Shown here one piece after another: positions 13,620 through 63,824 of a stretch of DNA of 64,000 nucleotides. The notes below the pieces were generated by a model, which did not search any database, was not told the origin of the DNA, and saw only the letters and a list, made by a program, of their open reading frames with translations. A program made the translations under genes and the position numbers. The stretch covers positions 20,828 through 84,827 of the forward strand of contig CAZQJS010000007.1 of the NCBI GenBank assembly GCA_964593725.1, written 5' to 3'. The first letter of the stretch is position 1. The number at the start of each line of letters is the position of its first letter. Source of the DNA: an uncultured Desulfobacterales bacterium (lineage in GTDB: Bacteria > Desulfobacterota > Desulfobacteria > Desulfobacterales > Desulfobacteraceae).

Positions 13620-13648
13620 TTGACTTTTTATTTTTGTTCTTATAGATT
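13620..13648 (+). promoter_or_regulatory. Candidate sigma70 promoter for the B12-riboswitch operon. TTGACT sits at 13620-13625, with a weak -10 (TATAGA/TAGATT) about 16-17 bp downstream.
   Basis: Read directly. Lies immediately after the hisHF stop. The -10 element is weak. Confidence 0.3.
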
Positions 13649-13654
13649 TAATTT

Positions 13655-13930
13655 TTAGCCAGGTGCTGCCTTGGGCAGATAATAGGGAATCCTGTGAGAG
13701 TCAGGGACGGACCCGCCGCTGTAATCGGGGATGAGGGCTTTACAAATCACTGTAAATAAAAGCGCTTAAAAGCCGTTAATTTATGGGAAGATAAAACCTG
13801 AACATGATCCGAGAGTCAGAAAACCTGCCTGCTGAATAAATAACCCAGGATGGACGAGGAGTAAAACCGGGGTGTGAAATATGGAAAATACGGTCCCATA
13901 TCGATGGCTTCGATATGGGTTTTTTTTGCC
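13655..13930 (+). ncRNA. Cobalamin (adenosylcobalamin) riboswitch with an intrinsic terminator expression platform
   Basis: The conserved core GGGAAtcCTGTGAgAgTCAGGgaCgGACCCGCCGCTGTAAtcGGGGATGA is present. Downstream there is an 11-bp stem hairpin (CCCATATCGAT ... ATCGATATGGG, centred ~13895-13920) followed by a run of 8 T. It precedes a BtuCDF/cbi operon. Confidence 0.8.
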
Positions 13931-53385: not shown

Positions 53386-56899
<3,514 letters not shown>

Positions 56900-58213: not shown

Positions 58214-59419
58214 TTAACCTTTTATCACACCAAGGGGTTTTAATTTATGTAAAGGTTTAATCAGATCAAGTTCTGCTTTTATCACCTTATCAATATCCTT
58301 ATATGCCTGGGGTGCTTCTCCAAAATCAAACATTCCTTTGGATTTTCCTCTTTTTACCTTATTCCACCTGTCATATACAATTTCTTCCATGGCAGCATCA
58401 CACTCTTTTCTGGTTAATTTTAAAGTTGCCTGGAGCCTGCCCATGGAACGGCCTGCACCATGGGAGCAAGACATAAAAGAATCCGGATTTCCAAGCCCTT
58501 CCACCAGATATGAAGGAGCGCCCATAGACCCTGGAACAATTCCAGGTTCTCCTTTTTTAGCAGATGTTGCTCCTTTTCTGTGAACCCAGACATTTTTTTC
58601 AAAATGGTTTTCAAGGGAAGCATAATTATGGTGTATATTTATTTCATTTTCAAATTCAGCTTTTGGGAAAACAACAGAAAAAGAAGTCATAAATCTGTCC
58701 ATTATTCTTTTTCTGTTTTCCTTTGCATACATGAGAGCAAGATTCATATCTTTTATATAGTTCTGCCCTTCCGGTGTATCCACCGGTAAAAAAGCCAGCT
58801 CTTTCCCCGGGGTGTTTACACACCATTTTTTATTTAATTTAATTGCAATATCATTATAAAAACGTGCAATAACATTTCCTAAATGCCTTGACCCTGAATG
58901 GATCATTAACCATACCTTATCGTCATCTCCTGCCTGGATTTCAATAAAATGATTTCCACCGCCCAGGGTTCCAAGGTTTCTGTTTGCAAGTTTTTTAACA
59001 TGAACATTGAACCATCCCCTGCTGCTGTATGCTTCAATATCATCACCAAATCCTTCCCAGGACTGTTCTGTTTTATTTGGTTTTCCTTCTCCGCAGGGAA
59101 TAAACTTTTTAACAAGCATTGCAACCTGCCTGATATTTTTTTTATTTGTTTCCTGTACTGGTATACTGGTTTTAACAGACCCCATACCACAGCCAATATC
59201 AACCCCCACAGCATTGGGTATTACTGCATCCTTTAAAGCAACAACTCCGCCAATGGGCATTCCATAGCCAGGATGGCAGTCCGGCATCAGGGCAACATGG
59301 TGGAACACAACAGGATGCATTGCAAGATTTTCTGCCTGGTTCATGGCCATCTCTTCAACATTTTTACACCATGATTTTATATGAACCTTATATTTATCTT
59401 TATTTTTTACCCATTCCAT
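58214..59419 (-). CDS. rtcB: RNA-splicing ligase RtcB
   Basis: 401 aa. RtcB metal and GTP site motifs (DCHPGYGMPIGG, GGGNHFIE, SCSHGAGR). Confidence 0.9.
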   Translation of the reverse strand: MEWVKNKDKYKVHIKSWCKNVEEMAMNQAENLAMHPVVFHHVALMPDCHPGYGMPIGGVVALKDAVIPNAVGVDIGCGMGSVKTSIPVQETNKKNIRQVAMLVKKFIPCGEGKPNKTEQSWEGFGDDIEAYSSRGWFNVHVKKLANRNLGTLGGGNHFIEIQAGDDDKVWLMIHSGSRHLGNVIARFYNDIAIKLNKKWCVNTPGKELAFLPVDTPEGQNYIKDMNLALMYAKENRKRIMDRFMTSFSVVFPKAEFENEINIHHNYASLENHFEKNVWVHRKGATSAKKGEPGIVPGSMGAPSYLVEGLGNPDSFMSCSHGAGRSMGRLQATLKLTRKECDAAMEEIVYDRWNKVKRGKSKGMFDFGEAPQAYKDIDKVIKAELDLIKPLHKLKPLGVIKG

Positions 59420-59448
59420 TTTTAAAATTCCTTAAATTTTAAAATCTG

Positions 59449-60486
59449 TTATTTTATAATCTCAACTTCCCACTGATTTTTCTGTATCTCTTTATATGTA
59501 ATTTCAAGATCTAAAAATTTTTTAATTATATCTATATTTGTTCTGGTATGCCGGCTTAATTCAAGGGTAATAAATTTTCCTTTCCCTGCCATTGCCATGG
59601 GGATGAGCAGCTGGTCTGCCAGAAATTTTCCCACAGGTGCCCTGTTTTTAATGTAGTGTTTTGCTGAATTTACACATCTTTTTGCAACTTTTTCAGCAGA
59701 CACACCTTTTATACCAAAACCTGTAAAAACCTCGGTTATATATTTACTTTTAATTGTTAACATAAGAACATTACCAGGCCCTGGTGAGTTCTTAAGTTCA
59801 ACTTTTTCAAGGTTTTCCCATCCAAGATACTTTTTAACTGTTTTAAGCTCCCTTTCTGCAATACTGACAGGTATATTTGCAACACAGGCAACTGCCGATG
59901 TCTCAATTATATCCCCCCTTTTAATTATATTTATTGCCTTAAGGGGAGCAGGCTGTATATCCACACTGAATTTTCCCCCGCCTGCCGGATAAAAACCTGG
60001 TTTTTCAAGTATTGCGTTTATATCCGGCCCCATTTTGTTAACCACTTTTAAAAAGGAGTTGTTAAGGAATTCAAAGGGCGGTGCATAAGGATTGTGGGTA
60101 CCGCCCTCCAATATAATATGAGAACCTTTGTCACCCATTATCAATGCCGGCAGAACAGTTTGTAAAACCAGGGTGCAGCTGCCTGCACTTCCGATGGAAA
60201 AATTAAATCTGCCCGGCTTTATGGTTTCAGGTTGGAATATCAGAGAGTCAGAACCAATAAAATGACCTGTTACCAGTGCTTTTCCAACCTCAGCCGCTGC
60301 ATTAACACAAGTTAAATGTTGACGCATTAACCCCGGTTTTCCCCGGCCGGCCCTGATTTTGCTCATTGAAAAAGACCTTCCTGTAACCAGGGATAAAGCA
60401 AGGGAGGTTCTGAGGATTTGTCCGCCTCCCTCGCCAAAGGTACCATCTATTTCTATCATAATTATTTCCTTCTGATTTTTAAACAA
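59449..60486 (-). CDS. rtcA: RNA 3'-terminal phosphate cyclase
   Basis: 345 aa. [23 protein letters not shown] is the RtcA N-terminal signature, and the active-site His sits in the conserved region. Confidence 0.9.
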
Positions 60487-60487
60487 C

Positions 60488-61600
60488 TTACAATAAATTT
60501 ATAACTCTATCTGTAAGACCTTTTTCACCTAATACTACACTCATTTTTGAATTGGTAACAACCTTTTCAAGGATATCAAGTTCTCTTAACCGCATCAGAG
60601 TCGGGTTGTTTTCAAGCAGTCTTGCAGTATTTGCCTGACTTCGCATTGCTGCAGTTTCTTCTCTTCTCATGATCAGGTTAGCATCTGCTGCTTTTTTTGC
60701 TTCAATTACCTTATTCATAAGCTCTTTCATGTCTCCCGGCAGAATAATATCTCTTATTCCAAAACCACAAATTAAGAGACCAAACTGTTCAGCCTTCTCC
60801 TTAATGGCAGCTTCAAGCTCCTTTGCAACCTTATCTTTTTTATTTAAGAGAGAGTCATAATCTAAAGTTCCTACCACAGAGCGGAGAGCAAGCTGTGCTT
60901 CCCGGTAAACAGCCTGATTGTTGTCACTCACTGCTGTAACAGACTTTAAAGCATCAATCACTCGAAAACTTACAAGGGCATTTATTCTTAAACTTAACTT
61001 ATCTGATGTCAGAATTTCCTGCCCGGATATATCAAGAACATTCTCTCTCATATCAACATGGTAAAATTTAATTTTTGTCATTTGGTTCCAGAATAAATAC
61101 CGGCCTGGTGACAGGGTCTTTACATATTTCCCATCTTCAAAAAAAAGACAGCTGTATCCGTCAGAAACATTAACAATGGAGAGAAAATCACTGGCATTAT
61201 CATGGTTGATAATTTTATTCATTGCTTTATGTCTGAAACTTACATCATTAGCATCAATAACTTCAACTCTGACCTTTTTAAACTTTGTCCACAGGGCATA
61301 CAGACCAGGCCCAAGAATTTTTTCAAACCGTCCTTCAAACCACACAAGGGCACGCTGATGATCCTTAAGGTCTATTACCTGAGCCTCATCTTTCAGGACT
61401 CCTGATTTAACAATTAAATCAAGGCTTTCATGTTCAATCCATGGAGATCTCGTTGAAAGGATATCCACTTTTAAATTAAAAAACAGATCAATAAACCAGT
61501 ACCGCCCTTGATTTAAAAGCCCTTTAAATTCACCACCCTTAAAATAAAACCCTTTTTCATATGATCGGATTTTTTTTGTTTTAATCATCTTTACCTCCAT
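60488..61600 (-). CDS. SPFH/band-7 (slipin-like) domain protein without a predicted transmembrane segment; first gene of the rtc operon
   Basis: 370 aa. The C-terminal ~200 aa carry an SPFH fold plus a coiled coil (…IRDIILPGDMKELMNKVIEAKKAADANLI…). The N-terminal ~170 aa are unassigned and have no hydrophobic helix. 1-nt gap to rtcA. Confidence 0.55.
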   Translation of the reverse strand: MEVKMIKTKKIRSYEKGFYFKGGEFKGLLNQGRYWFIDLFFNLKVDILSTRSPWIEHESLDLIVKSGVLKDEAQVIDLKDHQRALVWFEGRFEKILGPGLYALWTKFKKVRVEVIDANDVSFRHKAMNKIINHDNASDFLSIVNVSDGYSCLFFEDGKYVKTLSPGRYLFWNQMTKIKFYHVDMRENVLDISGQEILTSDKLSLRINALVSFRVIDALKSVTAVSDNNQAVYREAQLALRSVVGTLDYDSLLNKKDKVAKELEAAIKEKAEQFGLLICGFGIRDIILPGDMKELMNKVIEAKKAADANLIMRREETAAMRSQANTARLLENNPTLMRLRELDILEKVVTNSKMSVVLGEKGLTDRVINLL

Positions 61601-61888
61601 TTTAACCCCTAAGCTATTTTTTCATATGGCCAGGGTTGGGGTCTTGGGTAACATTTAAAAGTTTTTCCACACAAAACCTGCGGAGTATTATTTTGGTATT
61701 TGTTTTATCAATTTATACAAGCAATATTGATTACATCAAATATTCTCTCAAATACTTCATGGCATGGTTTTAAGTGCTGTTCATGAAAATTTAAACAAGA
61801 ACAAACCTTATTTTCTTTATTTTAATTATTCATAAACCAGTCAAACATTCATTTGCTTCCCCAAGACCAGTTAAAAGTTAAAAACATT

Positions 61889-61964
61889 AACCTGGAGCAG
61901 GATTTGAACCTGCGGCTGCCGTGTTAAAAACACGATGCTCTACCAACTGAGCTATCCTTTCTGA
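61889..61964 (-). tRNA. tRNA-Lys(UUU)-like element. Canonical D-, anticodon- and T-arms are present, but the 5' acceptor strand as read does not pair with the 3' strand: possible pseudo-tRNA or tRNA-like RNA.
   Basis: Reverse complement: GAAAGGA-TA-GCTCAGTTGGTAGAGC-A-TCGTG-TTTTTAA-CACGG-CAGCC-GCAGG-TTCAAAT-CCTGC-TCCAGGT. D-loop and T-loop are canonical. The anticodon loop has UUU at 34-36 with U33/A37. Acceptor 5' GAAAGGA versus 3' TCCAGGT gives only 3-4 pairs. Confidence 0.5.
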
Positions 61965-62158
61965 CACCTGACCTTGTTAGAGTCCATGTCCGGTACACAC
62001 AATATTGACTGTTTGAATAAAGTGCGCCGCTGGCCCGGCAGTATCAGAATTTGTAATTTATATAGAGCAATGGGCATACCAGTTAAAATAAAATAAGAGA
62101 TATTTTTTTTAACATATTGAAAACACGGGCTATTTTTTAAAAAACTAAAAATATATCC

Positions 62159-62186
62159 TTGACATATTTATAAAATACACTAAAAT
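62159..62186 (+). promoter_or_regulatory. Candidate sigma70 promoter for rtcR (TTGACA, 16-nt spacer, TAAAAT)
   Basis: Read directly: ccTTGACAtatttataaaatacacTAAAATaaat, ~35 nt upstream of the rtcR ATG. Confidence 0.4.
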
Positions 62187-62222
62187 AAATAGAAATATTT
62201 ATACATTTTTAGAAAATTTTAT

Positions 62223-63824
62223 ATGAAAAAGACAATTGTAATTGGAATATTAGGCCCTGTTCTGGACAGAGGAAAAAAACCATCCCGATGGGAGCACTGG
62301 AGGCCAAGCGTATCCATATGTCAGCATAGCGAGCTGCTTATTGACCGGTTTGACCTGCTTTATCAGAAAAAATACCTTTCTCTGCTGACCAGAATAACAG
62401 AGGATATTCATCAAATATCTCCTGAAACCCGGGTTGTGGGTCATGAAGTTGATTTTAAGGATGCCTGGGATTTTGAAGAAGTCTATGGTGTTTTACATGA
62501 TTTTGCCAAAACATATGAGTTTGATCTGGAAAAAGAAGAGTATCTTATTCATATTACCACTGGCACCCATGTGGCTCAAATCTGCCTTTACCTTTTAAAT
62601 GAATCAAACTATCTGCCAGGTAAGCTTATACAGACAAGCCCATCAACCAGAAGAAGAATTCATAGTGCCATTGGGGAATATAGAATAATTGATCTTGATC
62701 TTTCAAAATATGACCTTATTGCAATGCGTTTTAAAGAGGAAATCAAGGATGATATCTCTTTTTTAAAATCAGGAATAGAAACATGCAATAAAGCATTTAA
62801 TAAGCTTATCGAGCAGATTGAACAGGTTGCAATAAATTCTTGTGATCCTGTATTAATTACCGGACCAACAGGTTCTGGCAAATCAAATCTTGCAAGACGG
62901 ATATATGAACTTAAAAAATACCGCAGGCAATTAAAGGGTAATTTCATTGAAGTAAATTGTGCAACACTCAGGGGTGATGGTGCCATGTCAGCTCTTTTCG
63001 GCCATAAAAAAGGCTCTTTTACAGGAGCTTCAAGTGACAGAAAAGGACTTTTACGTTCAGCAGACAAAGGAATGCTTTTTCTGGATGAAATTGGAGAGCT
63101 GGGATTAGATGAACAATCCATGCTGTTAAGGGCAATAGAGGAAAAACAATTTCTTCCTGTGGGGTCTGATATTGAAACCAAAAGTGATTTCCAGCTTATT
63201 TGCGGTACAAACCGCAATTTATTTAAAGATGTAACTGAGCACCGTTTCAGGGAAGATCTGCTTGCACGTATTAATCTGTGGACATTTGAAATGCCAGGGC
63301 TCAGACACAGACCTGAGGATATTGAACCAAATCTGTATTATGAACTTGATCGCTTTGCAGAAAGAAATAATTCTCACATTACTTTTAACAAAGAAGCCCG
63401 CAAAAGGTTTCTTAAATTTGCAACTTCATCACAAGCCCTGTGGCCGGCAAATTTCCGGGATCTGAATGGCGCTGTTACCCGCATGGCAACCCTTGCACCC
63501 GGAGGCAGAATTACAACAAAGGTAGTGGAAAATGAGATTTACAGATTAAAATCAATGTGGTCAAATTCACATGTATCTGATTTTGAAAGTATTTTAACTG
63601 AAATTCTTGGCACAGAAAAAACATCCACCCTTGACCGGTTTGAAAAAGCACAGCTTGCTGATGTATTAAATATCTGCCGTCAATCCAAAAACATCTCTGA
63701 GGCAGGACGAATTCTGTTTGCAAGCTCAAGAAAGAAAAAAACCAGGATAAATGATTCTGATCGATTAAGAAAATATTTGTCAAAATATGAGATAAAATGG
63801 AATCAAATCCGATGTACTTTCTGA
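62223..63824 (+). CDS. rtcR: Sigma-54-dependent transcriptional regulator RtcR (CARF domain, AAA+ sigma54-activator domain, HTH)
   Basis: The N-terminus closely matches the RtcR CARF domain as remembered from E. coli (…WRPSVSICQ…HITTGTHVAQIC…IDLDLSKY…). AAA+ motifs GPTGSGKS and GAFTGA-like (GSFTGAS). C-terminal HTH. Confidence 0.85.
   Translation: MKKTIVIGILGPVLDRGKKPSRWEHWRPSVSICQHSELLIDRFDLLYQKKYLSLLTRITEDIHQISPETRVVGHEVDFKDAWDFEEVYGVLHDFAKTYEFDLEKEEYLIHITTGTHVAQICLYLLNESNYLPGKLIQTSPSTRRRIHSAIGEYRIIDLDLSKYDLIAMRFKEEIKDDISFLKSGIETCNKAFNKLIEQIEQVAINSCDPVLITGPTGSGKSNLARRIYELKKYRRQLKGNFIEVNCATLRGDGAMSALFGHKKGSFTGASSDRKGLLRSADKGMLFLDEIGELGLDEQSMLLRAIEEKQFLPVGSDIETKSDFQLICGTNRNLFKDVTEHRFREDLLARINLWTFEMPGLRHRPEDIEPNLYYELDRFAERNNSHITFNKEARKRFLKFATSSQALWPANFRDLNGAVTRMATLAPGGRITTKVVENEIYRLKSMWSNSHVSDFESILTEILGTEKTSTLDRFEKAQLADVLNICRQSKNISEAGRILFASSRKKKTRINDSDRLRKYLSKYEIKWNQIRCTF

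What the first reader, a model, noticed from the sequence alone, without database searches (positions are those of the whole stretch)
58214..63824. The rtc RNA-repair locus has a non-canonical layout: rtcR is divergent from [soluble SPFH protein, rtcA, rtcB], with a tRNA-like element in the intergenic region
In the canonical layout remembered from E. coli, rtcR is divergent from rtcB-rtcA. Here the operon is SPFH-domain gene, then rtcA, then rtcB (RtcA before RtcB), tightly packed with 1-nt and 29-nt gaps. The leading gene encodes a band-7/SPFH protein that lacks the usual membrane anchor and carries an unassigned ~170-aa N-terminal domain. RtcR's CARF domain is known to respond to tRNA or RNA fragments, and some enterobacterial rtc loci carry Ro60 and tRNA-like Y RNAs. 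A tRNA-like element inside this locus is therefore suggestive. An SPFH partner for RNA repair is not part of the described Rtc system.
Basis: partly seen in the sequence, partly recalled or inferred. Interest (0 to 1): 0.7.

Follow-up and report, generated by a model that had tools for sequence, protein, structure and literature searches.

The report
RtcR-controlled RNA-repair operon with vault-like partner
This is a real but already predicted variant of the bacterial Rtc RNA-repair system, in which a soluble cage-type SPFH protein and a tRNA-mimicking RNA accompany the repair enzymes; the RNA turns out to be far larger and more structured than a tRNA-like stub.

Summary
rtcR (62223-63824, +) is divergent from an operon of SPFH gene, rtcA and rtcB (61588-58214, -). 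A tRNA-like element lies at 61894-61957 (-), downstream of the window's only sigma-54 promoter match.

An SPFH/Band-7 partner plus a "band-7-associated tRNA" next to RtcB is cited to Burroughs & Aravind 2016, a paper I could not read. The same gene sits in the Pseudomonas aeruginosa rtc locus (PA4582/PaFlo8).

Comparison with 80+ loci from at least five phyla adds three points:
- **The RNA is large.** The tRNA-like element keeps only a 3-bp acceptor stem and has a variable anticodon loop. It is the middle module of a conserved, covarying three-domain RNA of about 400-600 nt. No Rfam family covers the flanking domains.
- **The protein is soluble and vault-like.** It has no membrane anchor. It carries two extra N-terminal beta modules and resembles a miniature major vault protein.
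- **The RNA-SPFH pair is the constant unit.** In Planctomycetota it follows long tRNA gene arrays and precedes RlaP nucleotidyltransferases rather than RtcBA.

Best reading: an RNA-protein scaffold for tRNA repair. This mechanism is inferred, not shown.

The parts
62223..63824 (+). rtcR: sigma-54-dependent activator with an N-terminal RtcR/CARF domain
   Evidence: NCBIfam NF038308 at 792 bits (cut-off 650). Pfam RtcR covers aa 2-184 and Sigma54_activat aa 189-354.
62159..62186 (+). Sigma-70-type promoter candidate for rtcR (TTGACA, 16 nt, TAAAAT)
   Evidence: It matches 11 of 12 consensus positions. The GTCAAG/TTGAC block is conserved at the same place in L001, L083, L084 and L086.
62066..62081 (-). 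Sigma-54 promoter TGGTATGCCCATTGCT (-24 GG, -12 GC) driving the operon
   Evidence: This is the only match to TGGYAY-N5-TTGCW in the 64-kb window. The equivalent TGGCAC-N5-TTGCT lies 45-170 nt upstream of the tRNA-like element in L001, L083, L084 and L086.
61959..62049 (-). 5' hairpin domain of the leader RNA (conserved blocks GCCGGGCCAGCGGCGCAC ... GTGTGTACCGGACATGG)
   Evidence: It is conserved from Desulfobacterales to Planctomycetota. RNAalifold on 44 sequences gives a 10-pair helix with compensatory changes, for example column pair 71/164 with AU:28 and GC:12. The same hairpin appears in the window's own minimum-free-energy fold.
61894..61957 (-). tRNA-like module: D arm, anticodon arm with loop UUUUUAA, T arm, and only a 3-bp acceptor stem
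   Evidence: Rfam RF00005 at 52.8 bits, model positions 5-66 of 71. ARAGORN finds nothing. In 44 homologues the 3-bp acceptor pair covaries (UA:27, AU:7, GC:6, CG:4), and the anticodon and T stems also covary.
61640..61868 (-). 3' domain of the leader RNA: a long-range closing stem (GGUCUUGGG / CCCAAGACC) around a branched interior
   Evidence: On 24 sequences, 61 consensus pairs are 82.9% paired, against 35-43% when partners are slid. Fifty pairs carry changes on both sides, and 0 of 500 shuffles reach the observed values. On 57 sequences, pairing is 84.7% against 33-44% slid. The window forms 38 of the 49 consensus pairs for which it has letters.
60488..61588 (-). Soluble SPFH/Band-7 protein (366 aa): two extra N-terminal beta modules, SPFH core, long C-terminal helix
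   Evidence: Pfam Band_7, E 3.8e-29. AlphaFold model with pLDDT 84. Internal repeat z-scores of 7.4 and 11.5, and no transmembrane segment. Foldseek finds stomatin at 1.9e-16; major vault protein hits at about 1e-10 span 400-469 alignment columns. More than 6,000 homologues have E <= 1e-10.
59449..60459 (-). rtcA, RNA 3'-terminal phosphate cyclase (the ORF stays open up to TTG at 60486)
   Evidence: NCBIfam NF003246 at 409 bits, above the cut-off of 352. It was called as 336 aa on the identical public contig.
58214..59419 (-). rtcB, RNA ligase
   Evidence: Pfam RtcB at 363 bits, full length.

Best explanation
**What is shown.** This is a member of the Band-7/b7a-tRNA branch of RtcB RNA-repair systems, here under RtcR/sigma-54 control. 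A sigma-54 promoter match at 62066-62081 is conserved in related loci. It lies upstream of a structured RNA of about 410 nt (62049-61640), followed by a soluble SPFH protein, RtcA and RtcB. The RNA has three parts: a 5' hairpin domain, a tRNA mimic with an intact elbow but a 3-bp acceptor stem and a free-varying anticodon loop, and a large 3' stem domain.

**What is inferred.** The SPFH protein oligomerises through its long, almost invariant C-terminal helix into a soluble ring or cage, as stomatin, HflK/C and the vault shoulder do. It uses its extra beta modules and the RNA to form an RNA-protein particle. That particle presents a tRNA-shaped surface to tRNA-handling enzymes and concentrates broken tRNAs with RtcA and RtcB (or RlaP in other lineages) for end-healing and ligation. 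This is analogous to Ro60 with YrlA in the Salmonella rsr-yrlBA-rtcBA operon. [quoted passage not shown]
For: **Gene and promoter identities:**

**Prior description of the system:** (Wang et al. 2018, citing Burroughs & Aravind 2016). The P. aeruginosa homologue appears.

**Linkage of the RNA and SPFH gene:**
- The tRNA-like core was found upstream of the SPFH gene on the same strand in 62 of 80 genome loci, usually within 300-600 nt. Several of the remaining loci have too little upstream sequence to tell.
- This covers Planctomycetota, Desulfobacterota, Acidobacteriota, Verrucomicrobiota and Omnitrophota.
- The RNA leads the operon whatever the gene order. RNA-SPFH-rtcA-rtcB occurs in L001 and L083-L087. 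RNA-rtcB-SPFH-rtcA occurs in L009, L024, L078 and L080.

**The RNA is under structural selection:**

**The context is always RNA repair:** RlaP x2, KptA/Tpt1 and RtcA in L014; RlaP x2 in L067.

**Protein fold:** the SPFH core plus long helix matches cage-forming SPFH proteins, and the whole chain aligns to major vault protein. There is no membrane anchor.

**RtcR ligand chemistry:** (Hughes et al. 2020).
Against: - No transcript, RNA-protein binding or oligomer data exist for this family. As of 2018 the b7a-tRNA had not been validated.
- Deleting the P. aeruginosa homologue gave no phenotype in the assays tried: growth, virulence, motility, biofilm and oxidative stress. RNA damage was not among them.
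- The vault resemblance rests on a predicted monomer with pTM 0.59, and on Foldseek hits with 9-11% identity and TM-scores of 0.35-0.39 on the query.
- The RNA always sits in the 5' leader of the SPFH or rtcB message, so a purely cis-regulatory role is not excluded.
- The window's copy is AT-rich and shortened. It forms 38 of 49 consensus 3'-domain pairs.
Confidence: 0.6

Rival explanations
1. The structured leader is a cis-acting regulatory RNA or signal amplifier. The tRNA mimic would be cut by the same anticodon nucleases that damage cellular tRNAs. Its 5' half, ending in a cyclic phosphate, would then feed RtcR's CARF domain as positive feedback, or the 3' domain would act as a conditional terminator controlling read-through into SPFH-rtcAB.
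For: - The RNA lies between the promoter and the first ORF in every locus.
- RtcR's CARF domain binds 5' tRNA halves ending in 2',3'-cyclic phosphate.
- In the consensus, the closing stem of the 3' domain is followed by a partly conserved U-rich tract ahead of the ribosome-binding site.
Against: - About 70 of the 80 SPFH-plus-RNA loci examined have no RtcR within 6 kb, yet they keep the RNA.
- The window itself has no U-tract after the closing stem.
- About 110 covarying pairs across three domains is far more structure than a simple attenuator needs.
Confidence: 0.15
2. The tRNA mimic is a decoy or sponge for tRNA-targeting toxins. The variable anticodon loop would track the specificities of locally relevant anticodon nucleases, and the SPFH cage would sequester the toxin-RNA complex.
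For: - The central four anticodon-loop nucleotides differ even between close relatives (window UUUUUAA, L001 CUUAUAA), while the stems stay conserved.
- In Planctomycetota the module follows long tRNA arrays. A sponge role has been proposed for such arrays in cyanobacteria (PMC8421152).
Against: - Loop variability is equally what lack of constraint would produce.
- U33 is not conserved, and some loops have 6 or 8 nt, making them poor mimics of nuclease substrates.
- A single RNA copy per operon is a weak sponge.
Confidence: 0.15
3. Chance adjacency: a decayed tRNA pseudogene or integration scar lying next to an ordinary membrane slipin that happens to neighbour rtcAB.
For: ARAGORN does not call a tRNA, and the acceptor stem is incomplete.
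Against: - The element recurs upstream of the SPFH gene, usually at 300-600 nt, in at least five phyla, with compensatory substitutions.
- The truncated acceptor stem is a trait of the whole family.
- The protein has no membrane segment.
- The operon layout recurs in independent lineages.
Confidence: 0.02

Closest known systems
RtcB / Band-7 / b7a-tRNA RNA-repair system (Burroughs & Aravind, Nucleic Acids Res 2016, as summarised in bioRxiv 10.1101/312249)
   Same: A Band-7/SPFH protein and a predicted tRNA-like RNA are encoded next to RtcB. The proposed role is scaffold or cofactor for RNA ligation. RlaP nucleotidyltransferases occur in the same neighbourhoods.
   Different: Nothing essential differs; this window is a member. 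[quoted passage not shown] Here the element lacks a full acceptor stem and sits inside a three-domain RNA of about 400-600 nt. I could not read the 2016 paper to see whether that was already noted.
Salmonella rsr-yrlBA-rtcBA operon (Ro60/Rsr with the YrlA tRNA-like Y RNA, RtcR-regulated)
   Same: The operon is RtcR/sigma-54-driven. A noncoding RNA with a tRNA-like module is transcribed together with a ring- or cage-forming RNA-binding protein and RtcBA.
   Different: The protein is SPFH, not TROVE/Ro60. No Rfam Y-RNA family matches. Gene order is RNA-SPFH-rtcA-rtcB. This mimic keeps a normal anticodon arm, whereas to my recollection YrlA replaces that arm with the Ro-binding stem.
Eukaryotic vault particle (major vault protein, vault RNA, TEP1)
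   Same: The predicted fold shares beta-repeat modules, an SPFH-like shoulder and a long cap helix. Foldseek aligns the whole chain to major vault protein at E about 1e-10. Both are soluble and associated with a small RNA.
   Different: There are two extra repeats rather than nine, identity is 9-11%, and no cage has been shown. The resemblance is structural and predicted, not evidence of membership.
Canonical E. coli rtcR / rtcBA locus
   Same: A CARF-AAA+ activator is divergent from a sigma-54 promoter that drives RtcB and RtcA.
   Different: The order is rtcA then rtcB rather than rtcB then rtcA, and a structured RNA and an SPFH gene come first.
[quoted passage not shown]
   Same: In 17 of the 80 related loci, mostly Planctomycetota plus one Acidobacteriota locus, the RNA-SPFH module follows 14-39 same-strand tRNA genes. 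L-arrays are reported to neighbour RNA-processing genes, including rtcB.
   Different: The window has no tRNA array. The array link concerns relatives only.

Membership tests
Band-7/b7a-tRNA/RtcB RNA-repair system | A Band-7/SPFH-domain protein encoded next to an RtcB ligase | tested here: met
   Pfam Band_7, E 3.8e-29. rtcB lies two genes downstream in the same tightly packed operon.
Band-7/b7a-tRNA/RtcB RNA-repair system | A predicted tRNA-like noncoding RNA adjacent to the Band-7 gene | tested here: met
   Rfam tRNA at 52.8 bits, ending 306 nt upstream of the SPFH start. The same element is upstream of the SPFH gene in 62 of 80 related loci.
Band-7/b7a-tRNA/RtcB RNA-repair system | Linkage conserved across unrelated genomes | tested here: met
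   The RNA-SPFH pair is linked to rtcR/rtcA/rtcB in Desulfobacterota, Spirochaetota, Omnitrophota and Verrucomicrobiota loci, and to RlaP, KptA and RtcA in Planctomycetota and Acidobacteriota loci.
Band-7/b7a-tRNA/RtcB RNA-repair system | The RNA is expressed and acts with the Band-7 protein in repair | not testable with these tools
   It was unvalidated as of 2018, and no later report turned up in the searchable library.
RtcR-regulated Rtc system | RtcR with a CARF-type N-terminal domain, an AAA+ sigma-54 interaction domain and a DNA-binding C-terminus | tested here: met
   NF038308 matched over its full length at 792 bits, with Pfam RtcR and Sigma54_activat.
RtcR-regulated Rtc system | A sigma-54 (-24/-12) promoter upstream of the repair operon | tested here: met
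   TGGTATGCCCATTGCT at 62066-62081 (-) is the only match in the window. It is conserved in L001, L083, L084 and L086.
RtcR-regulated Rtc system | Induction by tRNA fragments ending in 2',3'-cyclic phosphate | not testable with these tools
   Known for Salmonella; this needs an experiment here.
Genuine tRNA gene | A seven-base-pair acceptor stem and a detectable full cloverleaf | tested here: not met
   ARAGORN finds none. The Rfam match is local, positions 5-66 of 71. Only three acceptor pairs are conserved across 44 homologues.
Genuine tRNA gene | A conserved 7-nt anticodon loop with U33 and a stable anticodon identity | tested here: not met
   Loop sequence and sometimes length vary between homologues, and position 33 is often C.
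Y RNA / YrlA with Ro60 | A Ro60/TROVE gene in the locus and a match to an Rfam Y-RNA family | tested here: not met
   The four locus genes and both flanking genes are identified, and none is TROVE. No Rfam family other than tRNA matches the spacer at E <= 1.
Membrane-anchored SPFH proteins (stomatin, HflK/C, flotillin, QmcA) | An N-terminal transmembrane or hairpin membrane anchor | tested here: not met
   The maximum 19-residue Kyte-Doolittle score is 1.3, and that stretch lies inside the SPFH core. In the model the N-terminus is all beta strand.
Membrane-anchored SPFH proteins (stomatin, HflK/C, flotillin, QmcA) | An SPFH alpha/beta core followed by a long oligomerising helix | tested here: met
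   The model shows helices at 285-327 and 329-344. Foldseek finds stomatin, HflK/C, prohibitin and QmcA at E 1e-16 to 1e-11.
Major vault protein | Multiple N-terminal beta repeat domains, a shoulder (SPFH-like) domain, a cap helix, and assembly into a closed cage | tested here: inconclusive
   The domain order matches, and Foldseek aligns 400-469 columns at E about 1e-10. However, there are only two extra repeats, identity is 9-11%, and assembly cannot be tested here.

The most novel reading that the evidence does not exclude
The 'b7a-tRNA' may not be a stand-alone tRNA-like gene. It may be the central module of an undescribed ornate RNA of about 400-600 nt, made of a 5' hairpin domain, an acceptor-truncated tRNA mimic and a branched 3' domain, with no Rfam family covering the flanking domains. 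Together with a soluble, miniature-vault-like SPFH protein, this RNA would form a bacterial RNA-protein particle dedicated to tRNA repair. It is conserved in at least five phyla. In Planctomycetota it would be co-transcribed with long tRNA arrays, linking spare tRNA sets and repair in one unit.
Probability: 0.35. Interest if true: 0.75.

Novelty: new member of a known kind. Interest (0 to 1): 0.5.

Why it matters
What bacterial RtcB repairs, and how it finds its substrates, is still unsettled. The Band-7/b7a branch is a ten-year-old prediction that, as far as the searchable literature shows, has not been tested. It is present in Pseudomonas aeruginosa, a tractable pathogen.

This analysis gives concrete handles for such a test:
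- defined RNA boundaries and a covariation-supported secondary structure;
- a conserved sigma-54 start point;
- a soluble protein predicted to assemble like stomatin or the vault shoulder.

If the particle exists, it would be a second bacterial counterpart, alongside Ro60 with Y RNA, of eukaryotic RNA-protein cages. It would also tie long tRNA arrays to RNA repair.

Tried and rejected
- **ARAGORN on the whole window:** no tRNA. This is explained by the 3-bp acceptor stem, not by absence of the element.
- **Rfam with permissive E-value searches:** run on the window spacer and on five whole related loci. No family other than tRNA and its clan covers the conserved flanks, so Y RNA, ROOL, GOLLD and the like are rejected.
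- **A small ORF in the spacer as the reason for conservation:** rejected. The window spacer has no ORF of 60 aa or more, and the conserved columns change in compensatory pairs.
- **Viral-contig scan with the conserved 5'-domain motif GTTCCG-N4-WTGGGTTCTNAC:** five hits. None is followed by a tRNA-like element, has an SPFH gene or has tRNAs, so these are chance matches.
- **tblastn of the SPFH protein against phage and plasmid collections:** one weak phage fragment and nine large replicons at 33-40% identity. This gives no sign of routine carriage on mobile elements.
- **Fetching Burroughs & Aravind 2016:** attempts by DOI, PMC id and PubMed id all failed. What that paper says is taken second-hand and, where marked, from my own memory of its abstract.
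- **A 5'-3' closing helix joining the outer domains, as in Y RNAs:** neither the column-pair scan nor RNAalifold supports one.
- **A search for an RtcR upstream activating sequence:** the conserved GTCAAG block turned out to be the -35 box of rtcR's own sigma-70-type promoter. An AT-rich conserved block at about 62181-62222 remains unassigned.

Full report
**1. Checking the observation**

- rtcB at 58214-59419 (-).
- rtcA as an ORF at 59449-60486 (-).
- A 366/370-aa ORF at 60488-61588/61600 (-).
- rtcR at 62223-63824 (+).

Profile searches confirm each identity.
- rtcB: Pfam RtcB, 363 bits.
- rtcA: NCBIfam RNA 3'-phosphate cyclase, 409 bits, above its cut-off of 352.
- The SPFH gene: Pfam Band_7 over residues 145-315, E 3.8e-29.
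- rtcR: the NCBIfam RtcR equivalog at 792 bits, with the RtcR/CARF and sigma-54 interaction domains.

ARAGORN finds no tRNA anywhere in the window. The Rfam tRNA model nevertheless matches 61894-61957 on the operon strand at 52.8 bits, covering only model positions 5-66 of 71. The D, anticodon and T arms are intact. The anticodon loop reads UUUUUAA. Of the seven acceptor pairs, only the inner three can form.

**2. Promoters**

TGGTATGCCCATTGCT at 62066-62081 (-) has the sigma-54 -24 GG and -12 GC at the canonical spacing. It is the only match to TGGYAY-N5-TTGCW in 64 kb. One match is not significant on its own, since 0.47 are expected by chance.

The site is conserved, however. In the Desulfobacterales relative L001 it reads TGGCACATCCATTGCT. 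Equivalent sites lie 45-170 nt upstream of the tRNA-like element in L083, L084 and L086. The tRNA-like element therefore lies downstream of this conserved promoter, on the operon strand.

On the other strand, TTGACA-16-TAAAAT at 62159-62186 is a good sigma-70-type promoter for rtcR. Its -35 box is conserved in relatives.

**3. Is the layout conserved?**

The SPFH protein has more than 6,000 database relatives with E <= 1e-10. Nearly all listed are 366-368 aa and 58-73% identical. One source names a homologue 'PA4582' family.

Look-ups by exact protein sequence returned the same arrangement four more times: rtcR divergent from SPFH-rtcA-rtcB.
- On an unassigned contig (L083).
- In a record named Alkalispirochaeta odontotermitis (L084/85).
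- In contigs of an Olavius-associated bacterium (L086/87).
- In two further public copies of the window's own locus (L081, L082).

A scan of one genome per species gave 80 loci. In these, rtcR, rtcA or rtcB lie within 6 kb in about ten. The orders are either RNA-SPFH-rtcA-rtcB or RNA-rtcB-SPFH-rtcA.

**4. Already described**

The discussion of Wang et al. 2018 (bioRxiv 10.1101/312249) makes three statements, citing Burroughs & Aravind 2016.
- b7a-tRNA and YrlA occasionally swap protein partners.
- The RNA had not been validated experimentally.

I could not obtain the 2016 paper itself. From memory, its abstract names SPFH/Band-7 modules with 'a novel tRNA-like molecule' as candidate scaffolding cofactors.

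Two further papers place the homologous gene (PA4582 / PA14_60630 / PaFlo8) inside the P. aeruginosa rtc locus. One reports no phenotype for its deletion in general growth, virulence, motility, biofilm and oxidative-stress assays.

The locus is a new member of a known but experimentally untested kind.

**5. The RNA is much larger than the tRNA-like element**

Aligning the window spacer with L001 showed long conserved blocks on both sides of the element. The same blocks recur in a 58-locus alignment spanning five phyla. Three modules emerge.

*5' hairpin domain (window 62049-61959).* It begins a few nucleotides after the predicted transcription start. RNAalifold on 44 sequences recovers a 10-pair helix with compensatory changes.

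*tRNA mimic.* The D stem, the G18-G19 equivalents and the T loop are invariant. The anticodon and T stems covary. Just three acceptor pairs are kept, and the innermost covaries (UA:27, AU:7, GC:6, CG:4). In four of five relatives the Rfam match to this element is likewise local: 3-68, 4-67, 4-67 and 5-66. The short acceptor stem is therefore a family trait, not decay in this one genome. The central loop nucleotides vary freely, and ARAGORN assigns at least 14 different 'anticodons' or odd loops across the loci.

*3' domain (window 61868-61640).* It is closed by a long-range stem. Two independent counts support it:

| Alignment | Consensus pairs | Paired | Paired when partners are slid | Pairs with changes on both sides |
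|---|---|---|---|---|
| 24 sequences | 61 | 82.9% | 35-43% | 50 (29-40 when slid) |
| 57 sequences | 57 | 84.7% | 33-44% | 46 (each in at least two sequences) |

On the 24-sequence alignment the covariation score is 0.39, against about 0.10 slid, and no shuffle out of 500 reaches any observed measure.

The window's AT-rich copy forms 38 of the 49 consensus pairs for which it has letters. Its own minimum-free-energy fold reproduces the three-module layout, with a z-score of -2.7.

No Rfam family covers the flanking domains, either in the window or in five related loci. No paper in the searchable library describes them. Whether the 2016 paper did, I cannot tell.

**6. The protein**

The AlphaFold model (pLDDT 84, pTM 0.59) contains three successive five-strand beta modules at residues 2-45, 69-112 and 136-179. 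The third opens the SPFH core. Helices at 285-327 and 329-344 follow.

- The first two modules are sequence repeats of the third. Alignment z-scores are 7.4 for module 1 against 2 and 11.5 for module 2 against 3; module 1 against 3 is weaker at 3.7.
- Two homologues carry a further inserted copy of 67 residues.
- No segment is hydrophobic enough to span a membrane.
- The long helix region (RREETAAMRSQANTA...PTLMRLRELD.LEK) is the most conserved part of the family.

Foldseek finds cage- or ring-forming SPFH proteins: stomatin at 1.9e-16, then HflK/C, prohibitin, QmcA, erlin and flotillin. It also aligns the whole chain, N-terminal repeats included, to major vault protein over 400-469 columns at E about 1e-10. 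The 'unassigned N-terminal domain' is thus two extra vault-like repeat modules that replace the usual membrane anchor.

**7. What stays constant and what varies**

The tRNA-like core was found upstream of the SPFH gene on the same strand in 62 of 80 loci. Fifty-seven of these lie within 700 nt, mostly at 300-600 nt. Several of the other loci lack enough upstream sequence to judge. The enzymes around the RNA-SPFH pair change.

- In Desulfobacterota, Spirochaetota, Omnitrophota and Verrucomicrobiota loci they are RtcR, RtcA and RtcB.
- In the two array loci whose ORFs I scanned, the SPFH gene is followed by two RlaP nucleotidyltransferases. L014 (Adhaeretor mobilis, Planctomycetota) also has KptA/Tpt1 nearby and RtcA upstream. 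L067 is from Acidobacteriota.
- In 17 of the 80 loci the RNA directly follows 14-39 same-strand tRNA genes.
- A Citrobacter freundii replicon of 425 kb has rtcR divergent from a slipin and a nucleotidyltransferase, with no rtcBA. Only a T-arm-like hairpin sits in its spacer.

RlaP has recently been shown to add nucleotides to damaged tRNA ends (PMC12776372). Long tRNA arrays are induced under translational stress together with rtcB in Anabaena (PMC8421152). Every context therefore points to tRNA damage and repair.

**8. Mechanism**

*Shown:* gene identities, the conserved promoter site, the structured RNA and its conservation, the soluble repeat-SPFH-helix architecture, and conserved linkage to RNA-repair enzymes.

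*From established knowledge:* RtcR is activated when its CARF domain binds 5' tRNA halves ending in 2',3'-cyclic phosphate. SPFH proteins oligomerise through their C-terminal helices into rings or cages, as the solved structures returned show.

*Inferred:* the SPFH protein and the leader RNA form a soluble particle. Its tRNA-shaped module, with an intact elbow and no aminoacylatable end, docks tRNA-handling enzymes or broken tRNAs and brings them to RtcA/RtcB or RlaP, as proposed for Ro60 with YrlA.

I hold the identification with high confidence and the scaffold mechanism with modest confidence. The rivals are a cis-acting leader or RtcR signal amplifier, and a toxin decoy. Both are weakened by specific observations given under rival explanations, but neither is excluded.

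**9. Verdict**

The system is already known as a prediction, so the locus as described is a new member of a known kind.

The added value lies in three points that may or may not be in the unread 2016 paper:
- the RNA is a large three-domain structure with strong covariation and no Rfam family;
- the protein is a membrane-free, vault-like SPFH;
- the RNA-SPFH pair, not RtcBA, is the conserved core, and in Planctomycetota it is attached to long tRNA arrays.

Noticed in passing
L002, L007, L011, L014-L017, L020-L022, L028, L035, L036, L044, L060, L067, L076 (upstream of the SPFH gene): In 17 of the 80 related loci, mostly Planctomycetota plus one Acidobacteriota locus, the leader RNA and SPFH gene lie directly downstream of 14-39 same-strand tRNA genes packed into 6 kb or less. 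In the two loci scanned (L014, L067) the SPFH gene is followed by two RlaP nucleotidyltransferases. L014 also has RtcA before the array and KptA/Tpt1 after it.
   Followed up: partly
L083:9416-11176: A release-factor-like gene (Pfam RF-1) and a second RtcB lie convergent to, and immediately after, the SPFH-rtcA-rtcB operon. This looks like an RtcB2-PrfH ribosome-repair pair placed next to the Band-7 system.
   Followed up: no
L001:11209-11321: The Rfam tRNA model matches end to end (60.3 bits) over 113 nt, about 1.1 kb downstream of rtcB. That is some 40 nt longer than a normal tRNA, and ARAGORN does not call it. It may be a tRNA with an insertion.
   Followed up: no
L089:2753-6706 (Citrobacter freundii replicon NZ_CP151862.1): rtcR is divergent from a slipin-family gene and a nucleotidyltransferase, with no rtcB or rtcA. 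The spacer has a sigma-54-like site (TGGCACGCTTCTGGCA) and only a T-arm-like hairpin (TGGGTTCGATTCCCA) rather than a full tRNA mimic.
   Followed up: partly
L088:4744-7107: Here the sigma-54 activator next to SPFH-rtcA-rtcB is only 284 aa and has no RtcR/CARF domain on record. My pattern search found no tRNA-like element in the short 400-nt spacer. This may be a degenerate or differently regulated variant.
   Followed up: no
P0088 and P0099 (homologues of the SPFH protein), alignment A1 columns 132-198: Two homologues carry a 67-residue insertion that is a further copy of the N-terminal beta module. The repeat number therefore varies within the family, as expected for a vault-like repeat.
   Followed up: partly
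window 13644-13846 (+): A full-length cobalamin riboswitch (Rfam RF00174, 104.7 bits).
   Followed up: no
window 54497-56899 (+), with L081:9662-9681: gyrB lies about 1.3 kb from rtcB, and on the identical public contig dnaN is next to it. The rtc locus therefore sits beside the dnaN-gyrB cluster.
   Followed up: no
window 62181-62222: An AT-rich block (TTTTCTAAAAATGTATAAATATTTCTATTTATTTTA) between the rtcR -10 box and the rtcR start codon is conserved in L001, L083, L084 and L086, with TATAAA/TTTATA repeats. It may be an RtcR or other regulator site. It remains unassigned.
   Followed up: partly
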